Source: Shigella phage ESh19
Strand: one strand, 5' to 3'
DNA length: 64,000 nt
Sequence record: ON528729
In this document: positions 5,073 through 45,698 of the stretch, in pieces
How the letters are laid out: the number at the start of each line of letters is the position of its first letter
How positions within the stretch are numbered: the first letter of the stretch is position 1
Program-made: the position numbers and the translations under genes
Notes under the pieces: model-generated
The model's input: only the letters and a program-made list of their open reading frames with translations
Told to the model about the DNA's origin: nothing
The model's database searches: none

Positions 5073-5342
5073 TTATTTCCTCGTTTTAAGGACTGCATAG
5101 ATTTCTTTAGAATCTTCCCCAAACCATGTGTAGTGATTCTCGTTGATTTCAGGATGGTTGTCAACACGTATTTTGCAATCTCTTCCAACATGTTTAAGTT
5201 GTGCAGAAACACCCTGCATAAAGATGTGACAAGTTACATCATCCATAACCGTTGGCATAATGTCAAATCTCATGTAAGTGTTACTTGGTCTTGGTAACAG
5301 AAGATAACCTTCCACAAAAAATGTTTCATTCTTCTCTGTCAT
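5073..5342 (-). CDS. hypothetical protein (89 aa)
   Basis: ORF, stop/start coupled with o-spanin gene. Confidence 0.45.
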   Translation of the reverse strand: MTEKNETFFVEGYLLLPRPSNTYMRFDIMPTVMDDVTCHIFMQGVSAQLKHVGRDCKIRVDNHPEINENHYTWFGEDSKEIYAVLKTRK

Positions 5343-5608
5343 TGCTGCTTATTCCCTAACAAAATCATATCAATTAAATTGTTTGCCTTAATAGTGCATT
5401 CATAGTAACCATCACGATAAAACTCAAGAGCACTTGCAAGGTCTTCACCTTTAGTGCCTTTAACCTCATATCGTGCTTCTTCTTGAGTGTACTTGTCACT
5501 CTCACTTACTTGGGAGTTTTTGAAGGTACTGTTCACTTTGTTCGTTGAACACCCTGACATAAGGCTCAGTAGCACAATCATTAATAAAGACTGTCTTAGT
5601 TTTTTCAT
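5339..5608 (-). CDS. putative o-spanin (outer-membrane lipoprotein, Rz1-like)
   Basis: lipoprotein signal MKKLRQSLLMIVLLSLMSGC with lipobox; gene starts inside 3' end of i-spanin gene in another frame (overlapped architecture). Confidence 0.5.
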   Translation of the reverse strand: MKKLRQSLLMIVLLSLMSGCSTNKVNSTFKNSQVSESDKYTQEEARYEVKGTKGEDLASALEFYRDGYYECTIKANNLIDMILLGNKQQ

Positions 5609-5849
5609 AGTTCAATACCTCTTTGGTGTGTTTGTTTTTAGCAAGCACATCTTTCAAATCATTTTTGTAATTGGAGCTAAGATTTGATAAACCTTCTTGA
5701 TAAGCATCTTTAGCAACACTAACAAGCTTCTGATTAGTCAACTCTTTCTCGTTAACTTGGCTAGTCTTGTAAGTATAGCCACCCCAAGCACCTACACCTA
5801 ACAAAAACATGATTACAAAAGCTGCTTGACAAAATTCTTTGAATGTCAT
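5502..5849 (-). CDS. putative i-spanin (Rz-like, N-terminal TM + coiled coil)
   Basis: single N-terminal TM (AAFVIMFLLGVGAWGG) followed by charged helical region; overlaps lipoprotein gene; SD GGAGA. Confidence 0.5.
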   Translation of the reverse strand: MTFKEFCQAAFVIMFLLGVGAWGGYTYKTSQVNEKELTNQKLVSVAKDAYQEGLSNLSSNYKNDLKDVLAKNKHTKEVLNYEKTKTVFINDCATEPYVRVFNEQSEQYLQKLPSK

Positions 5850-36557: not shown

Positions 36558-36803
36558 ATGTTAAAATTATTGATACCAGCTTTAGCAGTCCTACTGGTTG
36601 GGTGTAACCCTTCTTATGAGAATAAGGATGCTTCTTACAGACTTCCTCCAGAAATGCAAGACTGCAAGATTTATAAGCTTAATGGTGATGCCATTAGCAG
36701 GGATGTTATTGTAGTTCGCTGCCCAAATTCTCAGACGACAACTTCTTACAAGTATGGGAAGAATAGTCAGTCACACGCCACAGTTTTTGATGAGGGATAT
36801 TGA
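36558..36803 (+). CDS. putative lipoprotein (81 aa)
   Basis: signal MLKLLIPALAVLLVGC with lipobox. Confidence 0.5.
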   Translation: MLKLLIPALAVLLVGCNPSYENKDASYRLPPEMQDCKIYKLNGDAISRDVIVVRCPNSQTTTSYKYGKNSQSHATVFDEGY

Positions 36804-42630: not shown

Positions 42631-42641
42631 ATACAAAAAAA

Positions 42642-42661
42642 GGCTCCTTTTTACGGGAGCC
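42642..42661. terminator. bidirectional terminator at convergence of plus and minus operons
   Basis: GGCTCC-TTTTTAC-GGGAGCC flanked by A7 upstream and T-rich downstream. Confidence 0.6.
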
Positions 42662-42667
42662 TTAGCA

Positions 42668-43042
42668 TTATTTCTTTTTAGCATTCTGTGTATTTTGTTC
42701 GGTAATTGCTTGTAAAGCTGATACAGACTGTGCTAAGTTGTTCACACTATCTGAGAATTTATCAAGGGTTTTGGTCAACTTAGCGTTCTCCCCTTTAACG
42801 TTCTCTAACTGCACTTTCTGGTTTTCCATCCCTAACTGAAGGAGTTTCATATCAGACTGTAAATCACGAATAGCTGAATAGTTACCTTTTGAGTAACCAT
42901 CCAACTGTTGTAACTTTGTGTTGATAGAAACTTCTTGCTTTCCATCAGAGACCTGCATCGTAGTGTACATACCAATTACACTGAAAATACCTACAACGAT
43001 TGCACCAATATTATTCTTAAAAGCATCTTCAAGCCACTTCAT
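42668..43042 (-). CDS. membrane protein, N-terminal TM + coiled coil (124 aa)
   Basis: TM IGAIVVGIFSVIGMYTT then heptad-rich region. Confidence 0.5.
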   Translation of the reverse strand: MKWLEDAFKNNIGAIVVGIFSVIGMYTTMQVSDGKQEVSINTKLQQLDGYSKGNYSAIRDLQSDMKLLQLGMENQKVQLENVKGENAKLTKTLDKFSDSVNNLAQSVSALQAITEQNTQNAKKK

Positions 43043-43236
43043 TATTTCTCACCTTTAAAAGCCTTTTCCAAGGTATCTACAAATTCATCATCAATAGGTG
43101 TATCTGTTTTACTCGCAAGGTATCTTGCAAGCTTAAAGAACACTTTTTCAATCATGTATTCACTGAGAAGAGAAAAAAGAAGCTTCCAAAAGAATGCCCC
43201 AAGGTTTTTCATGAAGATTGCTAGAATGGTTGGCAT
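43042..43236 (-). CDS. small membrane-associated protein (64 aa)
   Basis: hydrophobic N-terminus ILAIFMKNLGAFFWKLLFSLL. Confidence 0.45.
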   Translation of the reverse strand: MPTILAIFMKNLGAFFWKLLFSLLSEYMIEKVFFKLARYLASKTDTPIDDEFVDTLEKAFKGEK

Positions 43237-43322
43237 TTAATCACCTTACTTCTTGAGCCAAGATGGTGAGAATACCTACTAAGAAATATTAACACCATCT
43301 TGACAGTTAGTCAACAAGGTAA

Positions 43323-45698
43323 TTATGCAGTTCTTACCCAAGCCATTAATTTAATGTAAGTGTTAAGAACACTGAATGCTGCACCAGAACCAGTTGCACC
43401 AGTGTTACCACTGAATGTGTGGTTGTGAGCACCAATACCTACACCGTGACCGTGAGCACCTACCCAACTTGTTCTCCCTGTCCAAGTTCTGGAAGCATAG
43501 AAGTTAACTGGCGCACCATAAGTGAAGTGAGAACCTGTCCAGCTATGCCCACCTTGGCTACCACTCATTGCAAAAGCACCGTCTGCAACGTAGAACGAGT
43601 TATTATCACTTCTAAACCATCCAAAGTTACCAGAGATTTCCATATTACCTCTGTCATGGTCGTGAGCACCTTGAGCGTCTGTGTACTTAGTGCCATAATC
43701 AAATGTACTTGTTGTTCCAGAGAAGCTATGAGTGTGCGCAGGAATATGACCAACACTTAGAGCCACCGTATCAGAACCACCAAGACCTTTCACATCGGAA
43801 CCATTTGCAGAACCAATTCTAATAGTTCTGTTTGCACCCTCTGTCAAGTAAGTCCAAGTAGTGCCTGGGAAAGCTGTATTTGGGTTGACATTAGAAGCAA
43901 AGAACGTCACAATACCAACTGGATACACTTTTTTAAGGTCTGTAGCATCAGTTACAGCGGAAGCAATACGTTGGTCTACTTCAGCCTTGGTGTAAGCACC
44001 AAGTTCAGAGGGTGTAGGTTTGTCTTGGTCTGTGTAGATTTTAGCCCAAACCTCTTCAAAACCAAATCCATCCCTTGCTGTTCTATAATAGATTCCAGTA
44101 TTCTTGTAGTTAAATTTAAACTGTGCAGTCGGTGTAGATGCACCAACTCCAAGGTACATTTGGTAAACTAAGTGAGTAGACCCACCAGTTGAATTTGTAA
44201 CACTGTACAAACCTGTTTTTGAATTCCAAGCAATACCTGTTGCATCACCAACTTCTGTTCCCGTTCCAGATACACCAGACAACATATATCTTGAGTTTGA
44301 AGCAGATTGTGTGTAGTATCTTGAGTCAAAGTTTGACCAATCGCTTGGTCTTACTTGTCCAACAATATTCACATGTGTATTCACATCTAAATCAGTACCA
44401 ATATTGATTGCCTTTCCTGTTACATCATTGTTAAGTACCACATTGTTTTGACCAGCATCACCAATACCCAACCACCATCTCCTGCTCCCATTAGCATTAT
44501 GTGCAGACATGTAGATTCCAGAGTCTTGTACTGTTGCCTGTAGTCTAAAAGGATTGTCGCTGTCAGTATTGATAGTCTGTGGACTAGTAAAAACGTTTGC
44601 AGCATTAGTTCTTGCAAGAACATTCGTTAAAGAGCTTGGAACGTATCTTGTATCAAAGTTTGCAAAGTCACTTGGTTTTACCTGACCAGTTACATTGATA
44701 GCTTTATTAAATGAAAACTCTGTAGCAATTTTCAAGTTAACATTTGTCATCTGATTTGCTAAAACAATCTCAGACTGCGTACCATCTGGTTGACCTACAT
44801 ACCAAGTTCCTGTCCCAGCACTGTTATAACCACGCATAAATAATGCAGCATTCTCTGTAACCGCTCTTAAGTTAAGTGCATTACTATCTGCAATAACATA
44901 AGTCTTACCATTGAAGTTGTTAACCCCAACAAAGTTATTACTTGCATTAAGTTTTGCAAATCTCTGGTCAGCAGCAGTCTGTGTAAAGAATCTTGCATCA
45001 AGGTTATTCCAGTTATTAGGCTGAACCTGTCCATTGATTTCAAAATTCTTATCAACACTAACAGAGTTTGTGCCAAGAGTCAACGTAGCACCCTTACTAT
45101 TAACTAATGTAACATCAGTACCAGAAGTCAAGTTACCAACTGTGAATCTCAAAGCATTATTTGAATCCCTTGCTTCAATATATGCTCCACCATCTGGTAA
45201 GATACTTTTAAGTGTTAAACCAACACCGTTGATATTAATGATTTGTCTTGCCAAGAAGGTATTTTCAGTTTCCTTCATAGCGTATCTTGCATCATTTTCA
45301 GTATTAGTTCTCATACCTAATTCATTAGGAGATGGTTTATTAAGTGTGTGATAAACTGTTGCAGACCTTGTGGCATCATTTACAGTTAATCTTAAAGCAC
45401 TTGCATTAATTCTAAAGGTCTTGGCAGTGTCACCGAGAATAACCTCAGAAGAACCTGTTGGGTCTAATAAGTCTTTTCCACCGTATCTTAATTTGACGAT
45501 GCCAAGATTCCCTGTCATATCCCCACCAGTTAGTTGTAAGAATCTTTCTAGTTTGAAAGAGGCAAGGAAATTTGCATAGGTCATTTTACGGTCTTCATCA
45601 CCTAGCATATCAGACCTTTTGATAATTCTTAGGTGAAGTAAATCTTCTGAGCGAACTGTATCAATACTGTTTAGCTCACTTAGCTTATATTCAGCCAT
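43323..45698 (-). CDS. tail fibre protein (long), His-rich C-terminal domain
   Basis: GGDMTG fibre motif, three internal ~35 aa repeats (VQPNNWNNLDARF / VKPSDFANFDTRY / VRPSDWSNFDSRY), C-terminal HxH repeats ending AWVRTA. Confidence 0.7.
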   Translation of the reverse strand: MAEYKLSELNSIDTVRSEDLLHLRIIKRSDMLGDEDRKMTYANFLASFKLERFLQLTGGDMTGNLGIVKLRYGGKDLLDPTGSSEVILGDTAKTFRINASALRLTVNDATRSATVYHTLNKPSPNELGMRTNTENDARYAMKETENTFLARQIININGVGLTLKSILPDGGAYIEARDSNNALRFTVGNLTSGTDVTLVNSKGATLTLGTNSVSVDKNFEINGQVQPNNWNNLDARFFTQTAADQRFAKLNASNNFVGVNNFNGKTYVIADSNALNLRAVTENAALFMRGYNSAGTGTWYVGQPDGTQSEIVLANQMTNVNLKIATEFSFNKAINVTGQVKPSDFANFDTRYVPSSLTNVLARTNAANVFTSPQTINTDSDNPFRLQATVQDSGIYMSAHNANGSRRWWLGIGDAGQNNVVLNNDVTGKAINIGTDLDVNTHVNIVGQVRPSDWSNFDSRYYTQSASNSRYMLSGVSGTGTEVGDATGIAWNSKTGLYSVTNSTGGSTHLVYQMYLGVGASTPTAQFKFNYKNTGIYYRTARDGFGFEEVWAKIYTDQDKPTPSELGAYTKAEVDQRIASAVTDATDLKKVYPVGIVTFFASNVNPNTAFPGTTWTYLTEGANRTIRIGSANGSDVKGLGGSDTVALSVGHIPAHTHSFSGTTSTFDYGTKYTDAQGAHDHDRGNMEISGNFGWFRSDNNSFYVADGAFAMSGSQGGHSWTGSHFTYGAPVNFYASRTWTGRTSWVGAHGHGVGIGAHNHTFSGNTGATGSGAAFSVLNTYIKLMAWVRTA

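What the first reader, a model, noticed from the sequence alone, without database searches (positions are those of the whole stretch)
42668..43236. Two small membrane proteins at the end of the tail-fibre operon
Downstream of the tail fibre genes and just before the convergent bidirectional terminator are a 64 aa hydrophobic protein and a 124 aa protein with one N-terminal TM and a long coiled coil. The topology resembles holin/antiholin or fibre-assembly factors located beside fibre genes in T-even-type phages; this could be the missing holin of the lysis system.
Basis: inference. Interest (0 to 1): 0.4.

Follow-up and report, generated by a model that had tools for sequence, protein, structure and literature searches.

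The report
Candidate missing lysis module, Felix-O1-like phage
Two small coupled genes after the tail-fibre genes of this Felix-O1-like phage are real; one belongs to the family of a proven lysis protein of phage PM2, which makes the pair the best current candidate for the holin function that this phage group is still said to lack.

Summary
Both ORFs exist exactly as described, on the minus strand: p64 at 43042-43236 and p124 at 42668-43042, with stop and start overlapping. A bidirectional terminator follows.

The window is a Mooglevirus-like member of Ounavirinae, not a T-even phage.

p124 has one weak N-terminal TM helix and a single ~83-residue coiled coil. Its family is narrow and confined to Ounavirinae. 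Relatives label it "putative holin" from topology alone, and it matches no known holin family.

p64 is only partly hydrophobic. It belongs to Pfam PF26925, the family of PM2 gp l/P18, an experimentally defined lysis factor. Elsewhere PF26925 genes abut endolysins of four enzyme classes, the T holin of RB49-like phages, the PM2 holin, and the T7 holin slot.

In SUSP1, knockdown of the p64 homologue gives about 15-fold smaller plaques. Knockdown of either fibre gene has no effect.

The pair stays 87-97% identical while the neighbouring fibre diverges or is replaced. This argues against a fibre-assembly role.

Verdict: probably a two-gene lysis module (about 0.65). Which partner forms the hole is unresolved. 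No holin activity has been shown.

The parts
43042..43236 (-). p64: 64-aa protein of Pfam PF26925 (Phage_PM2_Gpl; phrog_402). Three helices: a hydrophobic N-terminal helix with two Lys, an amphipathic helix, and an acidic C-terminal helix after a conserved K-T-x-T-P-x-D-D-E-F motif.
   Evidence: ORF. phrog_402 at 1.7e-21. Precomputed PF26925 on a 100%-identical protein and on all homologues, named. My own profile of 8 non-PM2 members scores PM2 gp l at 22.3 bits, against 11.4 bits for the best of 5000 shuffles. AlphaFold pLDDT 86, helices 2-23, 26-42 and 47-63.
42668..43042 (-). p124: 124-aa bitopic protein (phrog_4038). Short N-terminus, one weakly hydrophobic TM helix (about residues 11-32), then a single ~83-residue coiled-coil helix ending in KKK. 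Labelled 'putative holin' in relatives.
   Evidence: ORF. phrog_4038 at 3e-70, function unknown. Hydropathy. AlphaFold helices 3-29 and 40-122. Heptad register. Annotation in Sf19, Sf14, Moogle and SUSP1. Only 2 true distant homologues among 1.84 billion representatives.
43237..43322 (-). 86-nt leader between the fibre stop and the p64 start. It holds a strongly folding, nearly invariant hairpin that overlaps a sigma-70-like TTGACT-17-TGnTAATAT motif and pairs with the p64 Shine-Dalgarno.
   Evidence: MFE -34 kcal/mol, z = -5.4. Promoter-like match. The element is unique in the window. The core is invariant in 16 distinct Felix/Moogle-type sequences, so there is almost no covariation to test. 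The SD is predicted mostly paired in all 16. Kolesnikvirus and the L014/L049 type carry a true intrinsic terminator at this position.
42640..42663 (.). Bidirectional intrinsic terminator shared with the convergent thymidylate synthase gene.
   Evidence: A stem of 8-9 bp with T-runs on both strands. Fold z-scores -3.9 and -3.5.
43323..45698 (-). Context: distal long tail fibre (791 aa, T4 gp37-like C-terminal domains), immediately upstream of p64.
   Evidence: phrog_4277, Pfam gp37_trimer and gp37_C. Only 47-55% identical in Moogle, Bas63 and SUSP1.
5339..5849 (-). Context: canonical overlapping two-component spanin elsewhere in the window. The i-spanin is 5502-5849. The o-spanin is 5339-5608, with lipobox LMSGC.
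   Evidence: ORFs and sequences. Annotated i-/o-spanin in Sf19 gp113/gp114.

Best explanation
p64 and p124 form a translationally coupled two-gene lysis module. It supplies the inner-membrane (holin-type) step of a lysis system whose other parts are scattered around the genome: a GH24 endolysin outside the window, and spanins at 5339-5849.

Proposed mechanism. All functional steps below are inferred; only anatomy, family membership and context are shown.
1. The pair is transcribed late with the fibre genes. A leader hairpin that pairs with the p64 Shine-Dalgarno damps translation. p124 is made in fixed ratio to p64 through the overlapping stop and start.
2. p124 inserts N-in/C-out with one weakly hydrophobic TM helix. 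It oligomerises through its 12-heptad periplasmic coiled coil and accumulates harmlessly. At a critical level it triggers and permeabilises the inner membrane, collapsing the proton-motive force and releasing the soluble lysozyme. This is a class-III-like, single-TMD holin, positionally equivalent to T of RB49/T4 and to PM2 P17.
3. p64 is a homologue of PM2 P18. It is a small membrane-active accessory protein that works with the single-TMD partner, either as co-holin or trigger, or as a helper in envelope disruption.

I put about 0.65 on 'lysis module' and about 0.4 on this exact division of labour.
For: Shown:
- p64 is a PF26925 member. It is linked to PM2 gp l by an independent profile test.
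- PM2 gp l/P18 is required for outer-membrane disruption at lysis, and its neighbour gp k/P17 is the holin. These statements come from the reviews, which cite Krupovic et al. 2007.
- PF26925 genes abut lysis genes in at least seven independent contexts:
  - after GH108;
  - after Amidase_3;
  - after GH24 lysozyme;
  - after Amidase_2;
  - before the T holin PF11031 in two Krischvirus loci, directly after gp37;
  - after the PM2 holin;
  - in the fibre-to-small-terminase slot where T7 keeps holin 17.5, abutting a 62-aa coiled-coil protein with a weak TMD.
- In four lineages the immediate partner is a single-TMD protein: PM2 P17, T, the L061 62-mer, and p124.
- The p64 then p124 order is kept in all Ounavirinae genera examined, even at 27-50% identity.
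- The pair is 87-97% conserved while the adjacent fibre is 47-55% identical or replaced.
- CRISPRi-ART in SUSP1: the p64 homologue agp027 is 'Fit' (2.27, p = 0.0007). EOP falls only about 3-fold, but plaque area falls from 616-1201 to 52-69.
- In the same study the known holins score Semi-Fit (T4 t) and Fit (T5).
- The same paper and the Meda announcement say no holin is known for Felix-O1-like phages.
- In Sf19, p124 is the only TM-containing ORF found among the late structural genes. The other small membrane proteins lie in early-type regions.
Against: - Neither protein has been tested for lethality, permeabilisation or complementation.
- p124 matches no holin family in Pfam, NCBIfam or PHROGs. 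It has no detectable homology to PM2 P17.
- A 12-nm periplasmic coiled coil is unusual for a holin and looks more like an i-spanin or DivIC/FtsB.
- The SUSP1 p124 homologue agp028 scored 'Not Fit' (0.20, 3 guides). Its target site lies inside the translated agp027 ORF, so this could be a false negative. That explanation is my inference.
- The agp027 phenotype could be polar on agp028, so it does not say which protein matters.
- The CPT group called the Moogle homologue 'putative holin' in 2015 but reported 'a holin was not identified' for Felix-like Meda in 2019.
- The Sf14 homologue was detected in virion mass spectrometry.
- PF26925 also occurs inside structural gene blocks, next to SU10-adaptor genes, in LAh_6, SE131 and L064.
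- The phage already has a canonical spanin pair, so a PM2-like outer-membrane role for p64 would be redundant.
- The endolysin is tens of kilobases away.
Confidence: 0.4

Rival explanations
1. Same lysis module, opposite roles. p64, the PF26925 protein, is the membrane-permeabilising effector, a small holin-like or disruptin-like peptide. p124 is its regulator: an antiholin or timing factor, or an anchor that holds p64 inactive through the coiled coil.
For: - In four cassettes where PF26925 follows an endolysin (GH108, Amidase_3, GH24 and DUF5675), no TM or lipobox protein is found among the immediate neighbours. PF26925 is therefore the only membrane-active candidate beside the endolysin there.
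- In SUSP1 the p64 homologue is Fit with a small-plaque phenotype, while the p124 homologue is Not Fit. That is the pattern expected for an effector versus a dispensable regulator.
- The p64 family is broad (Corticoviridae, myo-, podo- and sipho-type contigs), while its partners are unrelated to each other.
Against: - In PM2 the PF26925 protein is reported as the outer-membrane factor and gp k as the holin.
- The N-terminal helix of p64 falls below the usual TM threshold. The record's annotators did not flag the Vibrio member as TM-containing, and that genome has other TM proteins elsewhere.
- In L062 a strongly hydrophobic 39-aa ORF lies just upstream of the amidase.
- Polarity of the agp027 knockdown on agp028 is not excluded.
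Confidence: 0.25
2. A membrane function unrelated to lysis, for example superinfection exclusion, injection or immunity, or envelope remodelling during infection.
For: - A sigma-70-like extended -10 promoter motif is conserved in the leader. It would allow expression independent of the late fibre operon.
- Kolesnikvirus and the L014 type have a terminator between the fibre or adhesin gene and p64.
- Phages often keep small membrane proteins such as T4 Imm or Sp for exclusion. This is background knowledge.
Against: - Exclusion genes are not expected to be needed for plaque formation on a naive host, yet agp027 is Fit.
- There is no defence-family match.
- The recurrent adjacency of PF26925 to endolysins and holins is unexplained on this reading.
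- The promoter match count in the region is no higher than in shuffles.
Confidence: 0.13
3. A tail-fibre assembly factor or a virion-associated protein, for example a membrane-anchored scaffold for fibre trimerisation or a minor virion component.
For: - The pair sits directly after the distal fibre gene in all Ounavirinae and in RB49-like phages.
- The Sf14 p124 homologue (gp55, FDI99_gp102) is listed as detected by mass spectrometry of particles.
- The Sf14 authors note that no Mu-type fibre chaperone is encoded.
- Trimeric coiled coils are common in fibres.
Against: - Conservation is decoupled from the fibre: 87-97% against 47-55%. The pair persists when the fibre is swapped for unrelated architectures that bring their own Caudo_TAP or gp38 proteins.
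- In SUSP1 both fibre genes are Not Fit while agp027 is Fit. A chaperone cannot matter more than its client.
- There is no match to any chaperone family.
- The Sf14 sample was a pelleted, TCA-precipitated lysate, and gp55 was not placed in any density. Membrane contamination is plausible.
- p124 has a TM helix.
Confidence: 0.1
4. A second, non-canonical outer-membrane disruption system, spanin-like. p124 would act as an i-spanin-type inner-membrane coiled coil, and p64 would provide PM2-P18-like outer-membrane disruption.
For: - The p124 architecture, an N-terminal TMD plus a periplasmic coiled coil, is that of an i-spanin.
- PM2 P18 is needed for outer-membrane disruption.
- PF26925 sits after the endolysin, where Rz/Rz1 usually sit.
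Against: - No lipoprotein partner exists. p64 has no Cys or signal peptide, and no lipobox ORF is embedded.
- A canonical i-/o-spanin pair is already present.
- Spanin loss is usually nearly silent on plates. This is background knowledge, and no spanin gene is among the T4 or SUSP1 Fit or Semi-Fit genes named in the study's summaries. Yet agp027 is Fit.
Confidence: 0.1

Closest known systems
PM2 (Corticoviridae) lysis genes k and l: P17 holin and P18 outer-membrane factor (Krupovic, Daugelavicius and Bamford 2007, as cited)
   Same: Both are abutting or overlapping two-gene units made of a PF26925 protein and a small single-TMD protein with a helical, coiled-coil-like tail. p64 is a sequence homologue of P18.
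   Different: - Gene order is reversed: k then l in PM2, p64 then p124 here.
- p124 is 124 aa with a 12-heptad coiled coil, against 53 aa for P17, and has no detectable homology to it.
- p64 has about 7-13 extra N-terminal hydrophobic residues.
- This phage also has its own endolysin and a spanin pair. PM2 was described as lacking both. For the endolysin that view has since been challenged by the prediction that PM2 P5 is an endolysin.
T4-type holin T with its RB49/Krischvirus arrangement gp37, PF26925, t
   Same: The local gene order is the same: a distal fibre with gp37-like C-terminus, then a PF26925 gene, then a single-TMD N-in/C-out protein, then the end of the late unit. Both are class-III-like single-TMD topologies with most of the mass predicted on the periplasmic side.
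   Different: p124 does not match PF11031. T is 218 aa, and its periplasmic part is known to be globular (background knowledge). p124 has one long coiled coil instead. No RI/RIII-type antiholins are known here.
Two-component spanin i-subunit (lambda Rz type)
   Same: An N-terminal TMD followed by a periplasmic coiled coil, and similar in size to the phage's own 115-aa i-spanin.
   Different: There is no cognate outer-membrane lipoprotein gene embedded, overlapping or adjacent. A bona fide spanin pair exists elsewhere.
GenBank 'holin / putative holin' annotation of Ounavirinae homologues (Moogle gp54, Sf14 gp102, Sf19 gp58, SUSP1 agp028)
   Same: The same protein family at 88-97% identity.
   Different: The label is not backed by a family match or by an experiment. 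The group that introduced it later reported 'a holin was not identified' for a Felix-like phage. PHROGs lists the family as unknown function.

Membership tests
Pfam PF26925 Phage_PM2_Gpl (p64) | Significant match to the family HMM | tested here: met
   The precomputed PF26925.1 hit is on a protein 100% identical to p64 (P0121) and on all 24 close homologues. The family name is given. The local Pfam copy lacks this model, so my own hmmscan returned nothing.
Pfam PF26925 Phage_PM2_Gpl (p64) | Detectable homology to the founding member, PM2 gp l | tested here: met
   A profile of 8 non-PM2 members scores PM2 gp l at 22.3 bits (E = 2.3e-5). The best of 5000 shuffles scores 11.4 bits. Pairwise BLASTP alone finds nothing.
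Pfam PF26925 Phage_PM2_Gpl (p64) | Role in host lysis (outer-membrane disruption in PM2) | not testable with these tools
   Only indirect evidence is available: lysis-gene neighbourhoods and the SUSP1 small-plaque knockdown.
Holins (functional class), p124 | Small phage membrane protein with at least one TMD and a charged, hydrophilic C-terminus | tested here: met
   One TM segment at about residues 11-32, and a C-terminus ...NAKKK. The TMD is weakly hydrophobic (1.62), and 8 of 22 residues are G, A, S or T.
Holins (functional class), p124 | Membership of a described holin sequence family | tested here: not met
   There is no holin model in Pfam, NCBIfam or PHROGs for p124 or for five other family members. 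Only sub-threshold coiled-coil noise appears. The PF11031 model detects RB49 T at 4.5e-61 in the same library.
Holins (functional class), p124 | Genetic linkage to other lysis genes | tested here: inconclusive
   p124 is not next to the endolysin or the spanins, which are scattered. It is translationally coupled to a PF26925 lysis-family gene.
Holins (functional class), p124 | Timed, lethal permeabilisation of the inner membrane; premature triggering by energy poisons; complementation of a holin-null | not testable with these tools
   No experiment was found in the literature searched. SUSP1 agp028 knockdown scored Not Fit.
PM2 P17 (gp k) holin family, p124 | Sequence or profile homology to gp k | tested here: not met
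   hhalign probability 0.3%. Only the architecture, a TMD plus a helical tail, is shared.
Two-component spanin, p124 as i-spanin | Type II inner-membrane protein with a periplasmic coiled coil | tested here: met
Two-component spanin, p124 as i-spanin | Cognate o-spanin: a lipobox-bearing small ORF embedded, overlapping or adjacent | tested here: not met
   p64 has no Cys. No lipobox ORF is present among all ORFs of at least 30 aa in 42668-43236. The real o-spanin, with LMSGC, is at 5339-5608.
Tail-fibre chaperones or adhesins (Caudo_TAP, gp38, gp57A-like) | Family match and co-variation with the fibre they serve | tested here: not met
   There is no family match. The pair is 87-97% conserved against a 47-55% fibre. 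It persists beside fibres that carry their own Caudo_TAP or gp38.

The most novel reading that the evidence does not exclude
PF26925 proteins together with an unrelated single-TMD partner (PM2 P17, T4-type T, the T7-like 62-mer, Ounavirinae p124) form a widespread but unrecognised two-component holin system. It would span Corticoviridae and tailed phages of three morphotypes. In it the small P18-like protein is an obligatory co-holin or trigger, and in Felix-O1-like phages it is the long-sought essential lysis gene.
Probability: 0.2. Interest if true: 0.75.

Novelty: new variant of a known kind. Interest (0 to 1): 0.55.

Why it matters
Felix O1 and its relatives are classical typing, biocontrol and therapy phages. 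Their lysis timing gene has never been identified. A 2019 genome announcement and a 2025 functional-genomics paper both say so, and the latter calls Ounavirus lysis 'a mystery'.

This analysis joins three facts that were not joined before:
- The unexplained 'Fit' gene agp027 of SUSP1 is the p64 homologue.
- It belongs to the family of the PM2 lysis factor P18.
- That family recurrently abuts endolysins and single-TMD holins.

The open question becomes a two-gene, directly testable hypothesis.

If confirmed, it would define a new holin family (phrog_4038) with an unusually long periplasmic coiled coil. It would also give a function to PF26925 outside corticoviruses. That is useful for annotating lysis cassettes and for engineering lysis timing in therapeutic phages.

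If it fails, the widespread 'holin' label on this family in GenBank should be removed.

Tried and rejected
- Pfam, NCBIfam and PADLOC scans of both proteins gave no informative family. p124 gave only sub-threshold coiled-coil hits.
- PDB profile search and Foldseek of the p124 model gave nothing or only generic coiled coils. Foldseek of the p64 model against viral structures found only its own family.
- Pairwise BLASTP of p64 against PM2 gp l found nothing. A family profile was needed.
- hhalign of the p124 family against PM2 gp k showed no homology.
A 5-sequence alignment worked but returned mainly Ounavirinae.
- I tested whether a transcript starting at the promoter-like motif inside the leader hairpin would free the p64 Shine-Dalgarno, as with T4 gene e. 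It would not. The SD is then predicted to pair with the CACC of the hairpin's 3' arm.
- Covariation support for the leader structure cannot be obtained, because the core is invariant.
- The hairpin is not a repeated genome element.
- The PhageMaP Bas63 paper has no held supplement. Its gp116 is not this gene, whose Bas63 homologues carry locus tags bas63_0028 and bas63_0029.
- A search for 'PF26925' in the literature returned nothing.
- I considered p124 as an i-spanin and rejected it because it has no o-spanin partner.
Full report
**1. What is there**

p64 is at 43042..43236 and p124 at 42668..43042.
- The p64 stop and the p124 start share one base (TAATG). A GGTGAG ribosome-binding site for p124 lies in the last codons of p64.
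- Upstream on the same strand are two tail-fibre genes. One is 391 aa. The other is 791 aa with T4 gp37-like trimerisation and C-terminal domains.
- Downstream is a G+C-rich hairpin at 42640-42663, flanked by T-runs on both strands. It faces the convergent thymidylate synthase and DHFR genes.

The window is a Felix-O1-like myophage of subfamily Ounavirinae, closest to Mooglevirus. It is 97.4% identical to Citrobacter phage BSwM KMM2 and 92-97% identical to the Shigella phages Sf13-Sf19. It is not a T-even phage.

**2. Anatomy of the proteins**

p124:
- It has one hydrophobic segment at about residues 11-32, with a 19-mer hydropathy maximum of 1.62. Eight of 22 residues are G, A, S or T.
- AlphaFold predicts helix 3-29, a short low-confidence linker, and one continuous helix 40-122. 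pLDDT exceeds 80 from about residue 60.
- Residues 40-122 keep a single heptad register, with 71% hydrophobic a/d positions against 25% overall. This amounts to about 12 uninterrupted heptads.
- Charge flanking the TMD is nearly balanced in the window protein. It leans slightly positive on the N-side in distant homologues, so N-in/C-out is likely but not shown.

p64 is only partly hydrophobic. AlphaFold, run with a 41-sequence alignment, gives three helices at pLDDT 86.
- H1 (residues 2-23) is hydrophobic but carries two Lys. Its hydropathy maximum of 1.45 is below the usual TM cut-off.
- H2 (26-42) is amphipathic.
- H3 (47-63) is acidic, with net charge -4.
- Family-wide conserved positions are E26, A37 and D49-D50, inside a K-T-x-T-P-x-D-D-E-F motif.

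'Hydrophobic membrane protein' overstates the case for p64.

**3. Families**

p124 belongs to phrog_4038 and p64 to phrog_402. Both are listed as 'unknown function'.

The p124 family is narrow.
- It has 305 clusters at 90% identity, and the best 120 are all at least 90% identical to the query.
- A full HMMER pass over 1.84 billion representatives found nine hits. Only two are genuine distant homologues, of 114 and 128 aa at 28% identity.
- Both distant homologues have the same TMD plus coiled-coil build. Each follows a PF26925 gene at the end of a fibre block and faces a convergent thymidylate synthase gene (the 114-aa protein in L014 differs from P0147 at a few residues).
- None of six family members matches any holin model. 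All hits are sub-threshold coiled-coil noise. The weak DivIC resemblance reflects the shared architecture of a TMD plus a leucine zipper.
- Structure and PDB searches were uninformative.

p64 is different. Every homologue returned by the protein search carries the precomputed Pfam domain PF26925, including one that is 100% identical. The contig look-ups name this family Phage_PM2_Gpl.
- The local Pfam copy lacks this model, so I tested the link myself.
- PM2 gene l encodes a 51-aa protein.
- A profile built from eight non-PM2 members scores it at 22.3 bits (E = 2.3e-5). The best of 5000 shuffles of the same sequence scores 11.4 bits.

According to two reviews citing Krupovic et al. 2007, PM2 P17 (gene k) permeabilises the cytoplasmic membrane as a distinct class of holin. 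P18 (gene l) is required to disrupt the outer membrane.

PM2 gp k is itself a 53-aa protein with an N-terminal TMD and a helical tail. It shows no detectable homology to p124.

**4. Where PF26925 genes sit in other phages**

It has about 110 clusters. The contexts found were:

| Context | Source |
|---|---|
| Directly after a GH108 endolysin | Vibrio phage 1.016.O |
| Overlapping the end of an Amidase_3 gene | L055 |
| Abutting a GH24 lysozyme | Shewanella genome contig, L057 |
| Abutting an Amidase_2 gene | L062 |
| Overlapping the end of a DUF5675 protein | L058 |
| Between gp37 and the T holin (PF11031) | RB49 and a second Krischvirus contig |
| After holin gene k | PM2 |
| Between the fibre and the small terminase | T7-like contig L061 |
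| Next to an SU10-type adaptor gene in a structural block | LAh_6, SE131, L064 |

- The L061 slot is where T7 keeps holin gene 17.5; that is established T7 gene order. There the PF26925 gene abuts a 62-aa protein with an N-terminal coiled coil and a weak C-terminal hydrophobic segment.
- PF26925 is therefore predominantly a lysis-cassette gene. In four lineages its immediate partner is a single-TMD protein. Two of those partners belong to experimentally established holin types.
- In the four cassettes that I scanned (GH108, Amidase_3, GH24 and DUF5675), no neighbouring ORF has a TM segment or a lipobox.
- The Vibrio genome does encode TM proteins elsewhere. Its annotators did not flag the PF26925 member as TM-containing.

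**5. Conservation and synteny in Ounavirinae**

The order fibre, p64, p124, terminator, convergent thyA holds in Mooglevirus, Felixounavirus, Suspvirus, Kolesnikvirus and two uncultured lineages.

Identity to the window proteins:

| Relative | p64 | p124 | Distal fibre | thyA |
|---|---|---|---|---|
| Moogle | 97% | 97% | 47% | 96% |
| Bas63 | 89% | 93% | 51% | 79% |
| SUSP1 | 88% | 95% | 55% | 86% |

In Pistou, L013 and L014 the fibre is a different protein. L013 brings a Caudo_TAP chaperone, and the L014-type contigs bring gp38-type adhesins. The p64-p124 pair remains in all of them. This uncouples the pair from fibre specificity and argues against a fibre-chaperone role.

**6. What the literature says**

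The 'holin' label comes from the 2015 Moogle announcement. It lists 'a putative holin' without evidence and notes that lysis genes are scattered in Felix-O1-like phages. The same centre wrote in 2019, for Felix-like Meda, that 'a holin was not identified'. Meda's homologue is annotated as hypothetical.

The Sf14 cryo-EM paper lists gp55 (FDI99_gp102, the p124 homologue) as 'Holin or lysozyme', detected by mass spectrometry of particles. The sample was a pelleted, TCA-precipitated stock, and the protein is not placed in any density.

The most informative data come from the CRISPRi-ART screen of SUSP1.

| SUSP1 gene | Homologue | Fitness | Call |
|---|---|---|---|
| agp027 | p64 | 2.27 (p = 0.0007, 6 guides) | Fit |
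| agp028 | p124 | 0.20 (3 guides) | Not Fit |
| agp025 | fibre | -1.4 | Not Fit |
| agp026 | fibre | -4.6 | Not Fit |

- In single-guide validation of agp027, EOP fell only from 1-2e10 to 5e9.
- Plaque size fell from 616-1201 to 52-69 units.
- In the same study the known holins behave similarly: T4 t is Semi-Fit and the T5 holin is Fit.
- The authors treat agp027 as a gene of 'completely hypothetical function'. [quoted passage not shown]

Two caveats are my inference. A guide on the agp027 start may also lower translation of the coupled agp028. Guides on the agp028 start lie inside the translated agp027 ORF, where ribosomes may displace dCas13d, so 'Not Fit' may be a false negative.

**7. Interpretation**

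The simplest account of all this is that p64 and p124 form a coupled lysis module. I put about 0.65 on that. This fits several observations:
- the family membership of p64 and the neighbourhoods of its relatives;
- the positional equivalence of p124 to T in RB49-type phages and to P17 in PM2;
- the small-plaque, near-normal-EOP phenotype in SUSP1;
- the strong conservation of the pair, independent of the fibre;
- the lack of any other recognised holin.

In the complete genome of relative Sf19, the other small TM proteins lie in early-type regions, and none is next to the GH24 lysin. The window has a canonical overlapping spanin pair at 5339-5849, so the outer-membrane step is already covered.

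My preferred division of labour is p124 as the single-TMD hole-former that oligomerises through its coiled coil, and p64 as a P18-like accessory or co-holin (about 0.4).

The reverse assignment makes p64 the effector and p124 a regulator (about 0.25). It is favoured by the knockdown asymmetry and by the endolysin-plus-PF26925 cassettes that have no other membrane protein nearby.

Other readings are less likely:
- a non-lysis membrane function (about 0.13);
- a fibre or virion role (about 0.1);
- a second spanin-like system (about 0.1).

None of the functional steps has been demonstrated.

**8. The leader**

The 86-nt spacer between the fibre stop and the p64 start folds strongly (-34 kcal/mol, z = -5.4).
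- It overlaps a sigma-70-like TTGACT-17-TGnTAATAT motif.
- It is unique in the window.
- Its core is invariant in 16 distinct Felix/Moogle-type sequences, which leaves almost no covariation to test.
- The p64 Shine-Dalgarno is predicted to be mostly paired in all 16.
- Kolesnikvirus and the L014/L049 lineage have a true intrinsic terminator at this spot.

The pair may therefore be a partly separate, translationally damped unit rather than simply 'the end of the fibre operon'. A T4-gene-e-like model, in which an internal promoter frees the SD, was not supported.

**9. Novelty and verdict**

The 'holin' idea is already a database label for p124, but an unsupported one.

What is new here is the link between three things: p64, the unexplained SUSP1 fitness gene agp027, and the PM2 P18 lysis family. 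Also new is the recurrent pairing of that family with single-TMD holins.

I rate it a new variant of a known kind: a PM2-like two-gene lysis module in a tailed phage, with an unrelated, much longer coiled-coil partner. Interest is moderate to fairly high, because it makes an acknowledged open question directly testable.

Noticed in passing
window 43237-43322 (- strand): The leader has a nearly invariant hairpin (-34 kcal/mol, z = -5.4). It overlaps a TTGACT-17-TGnTAATAT promoter-like motif and is predicted to sequester the p64 Shine-Dalgarno. Related genera have an intrinsic terminator at the same place. Its function is unknown; it could act in attenuation, mRNA processing or translational damping.
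   Followed up: partly
SUSP1 NC_028808 22942-23139 (locus L059 4943-5140): The CRISPRi-ART 'Fit' gene agp027 is described by its authors as completely hypothetical. It is the p64 homologue and so a PF26925 / PM2-P18-family protein. This link does not appear in the paper.
   Followed up: yes
L061 2811-3186 (T7-like metagenomic contig): A PF26925 gene and an abutting 62-aa protein (coiled coil plus a weak C-terminal hydrophobic segment) lie between the tail fibre and the small terminase. T7 keeps holin gene 17.5 at this position. This suggests a non-orthologous holin replacement.
   Followed up: partly
L055 1972-2693; L057 3553-4204; L062 2581-3216; L006 3477-4210; L058 3669-4195: PF26925 genes abut endolysins of four enzyme classes (Amidase_3, GH24, Amidase_2, GH108) and a DUF5675 protein. 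In the four loci scanned for this (L055, L057, L006, L058) no TM or lipobox ORF is found among the immediate neighbours. DUF5675 may therefore be an unrecognised lysin.
   Followed up: partly
L014-L017 (uncultured Ounavirinae-like contigs), genes upstream of the PF26925 gene: These relatives carry a 1355-aa fibre with Gp34_trimer and S74 peptidase domains, plus one or two T-even gp38-type adhesin genes. The window's gp37-like fibre is absent. This shows wholesale fibre-module exchange with T-even phages around a fixed p64-p124 pair.
   Followed up: no
window 36558-36803 (+): An 81-aa predicted lipoprotein (MLKLLIPALAVLLVGC...) lies in the early region. It is homologous to Sf19 gp72 and unrelated to the spanins. 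Its function is unknown.
   Followed up: no
Sf19 MF327005 48624-48773 (- strand; locus L003): An unannotated 49-aa ORF with two or three strongly hydrophobic segments lies between gp69 and the DNA ligase gene. It is another small membrane peptide that could be considered as a holin candidate. I did not find it at the expected place in the window.
   Followed up: partly
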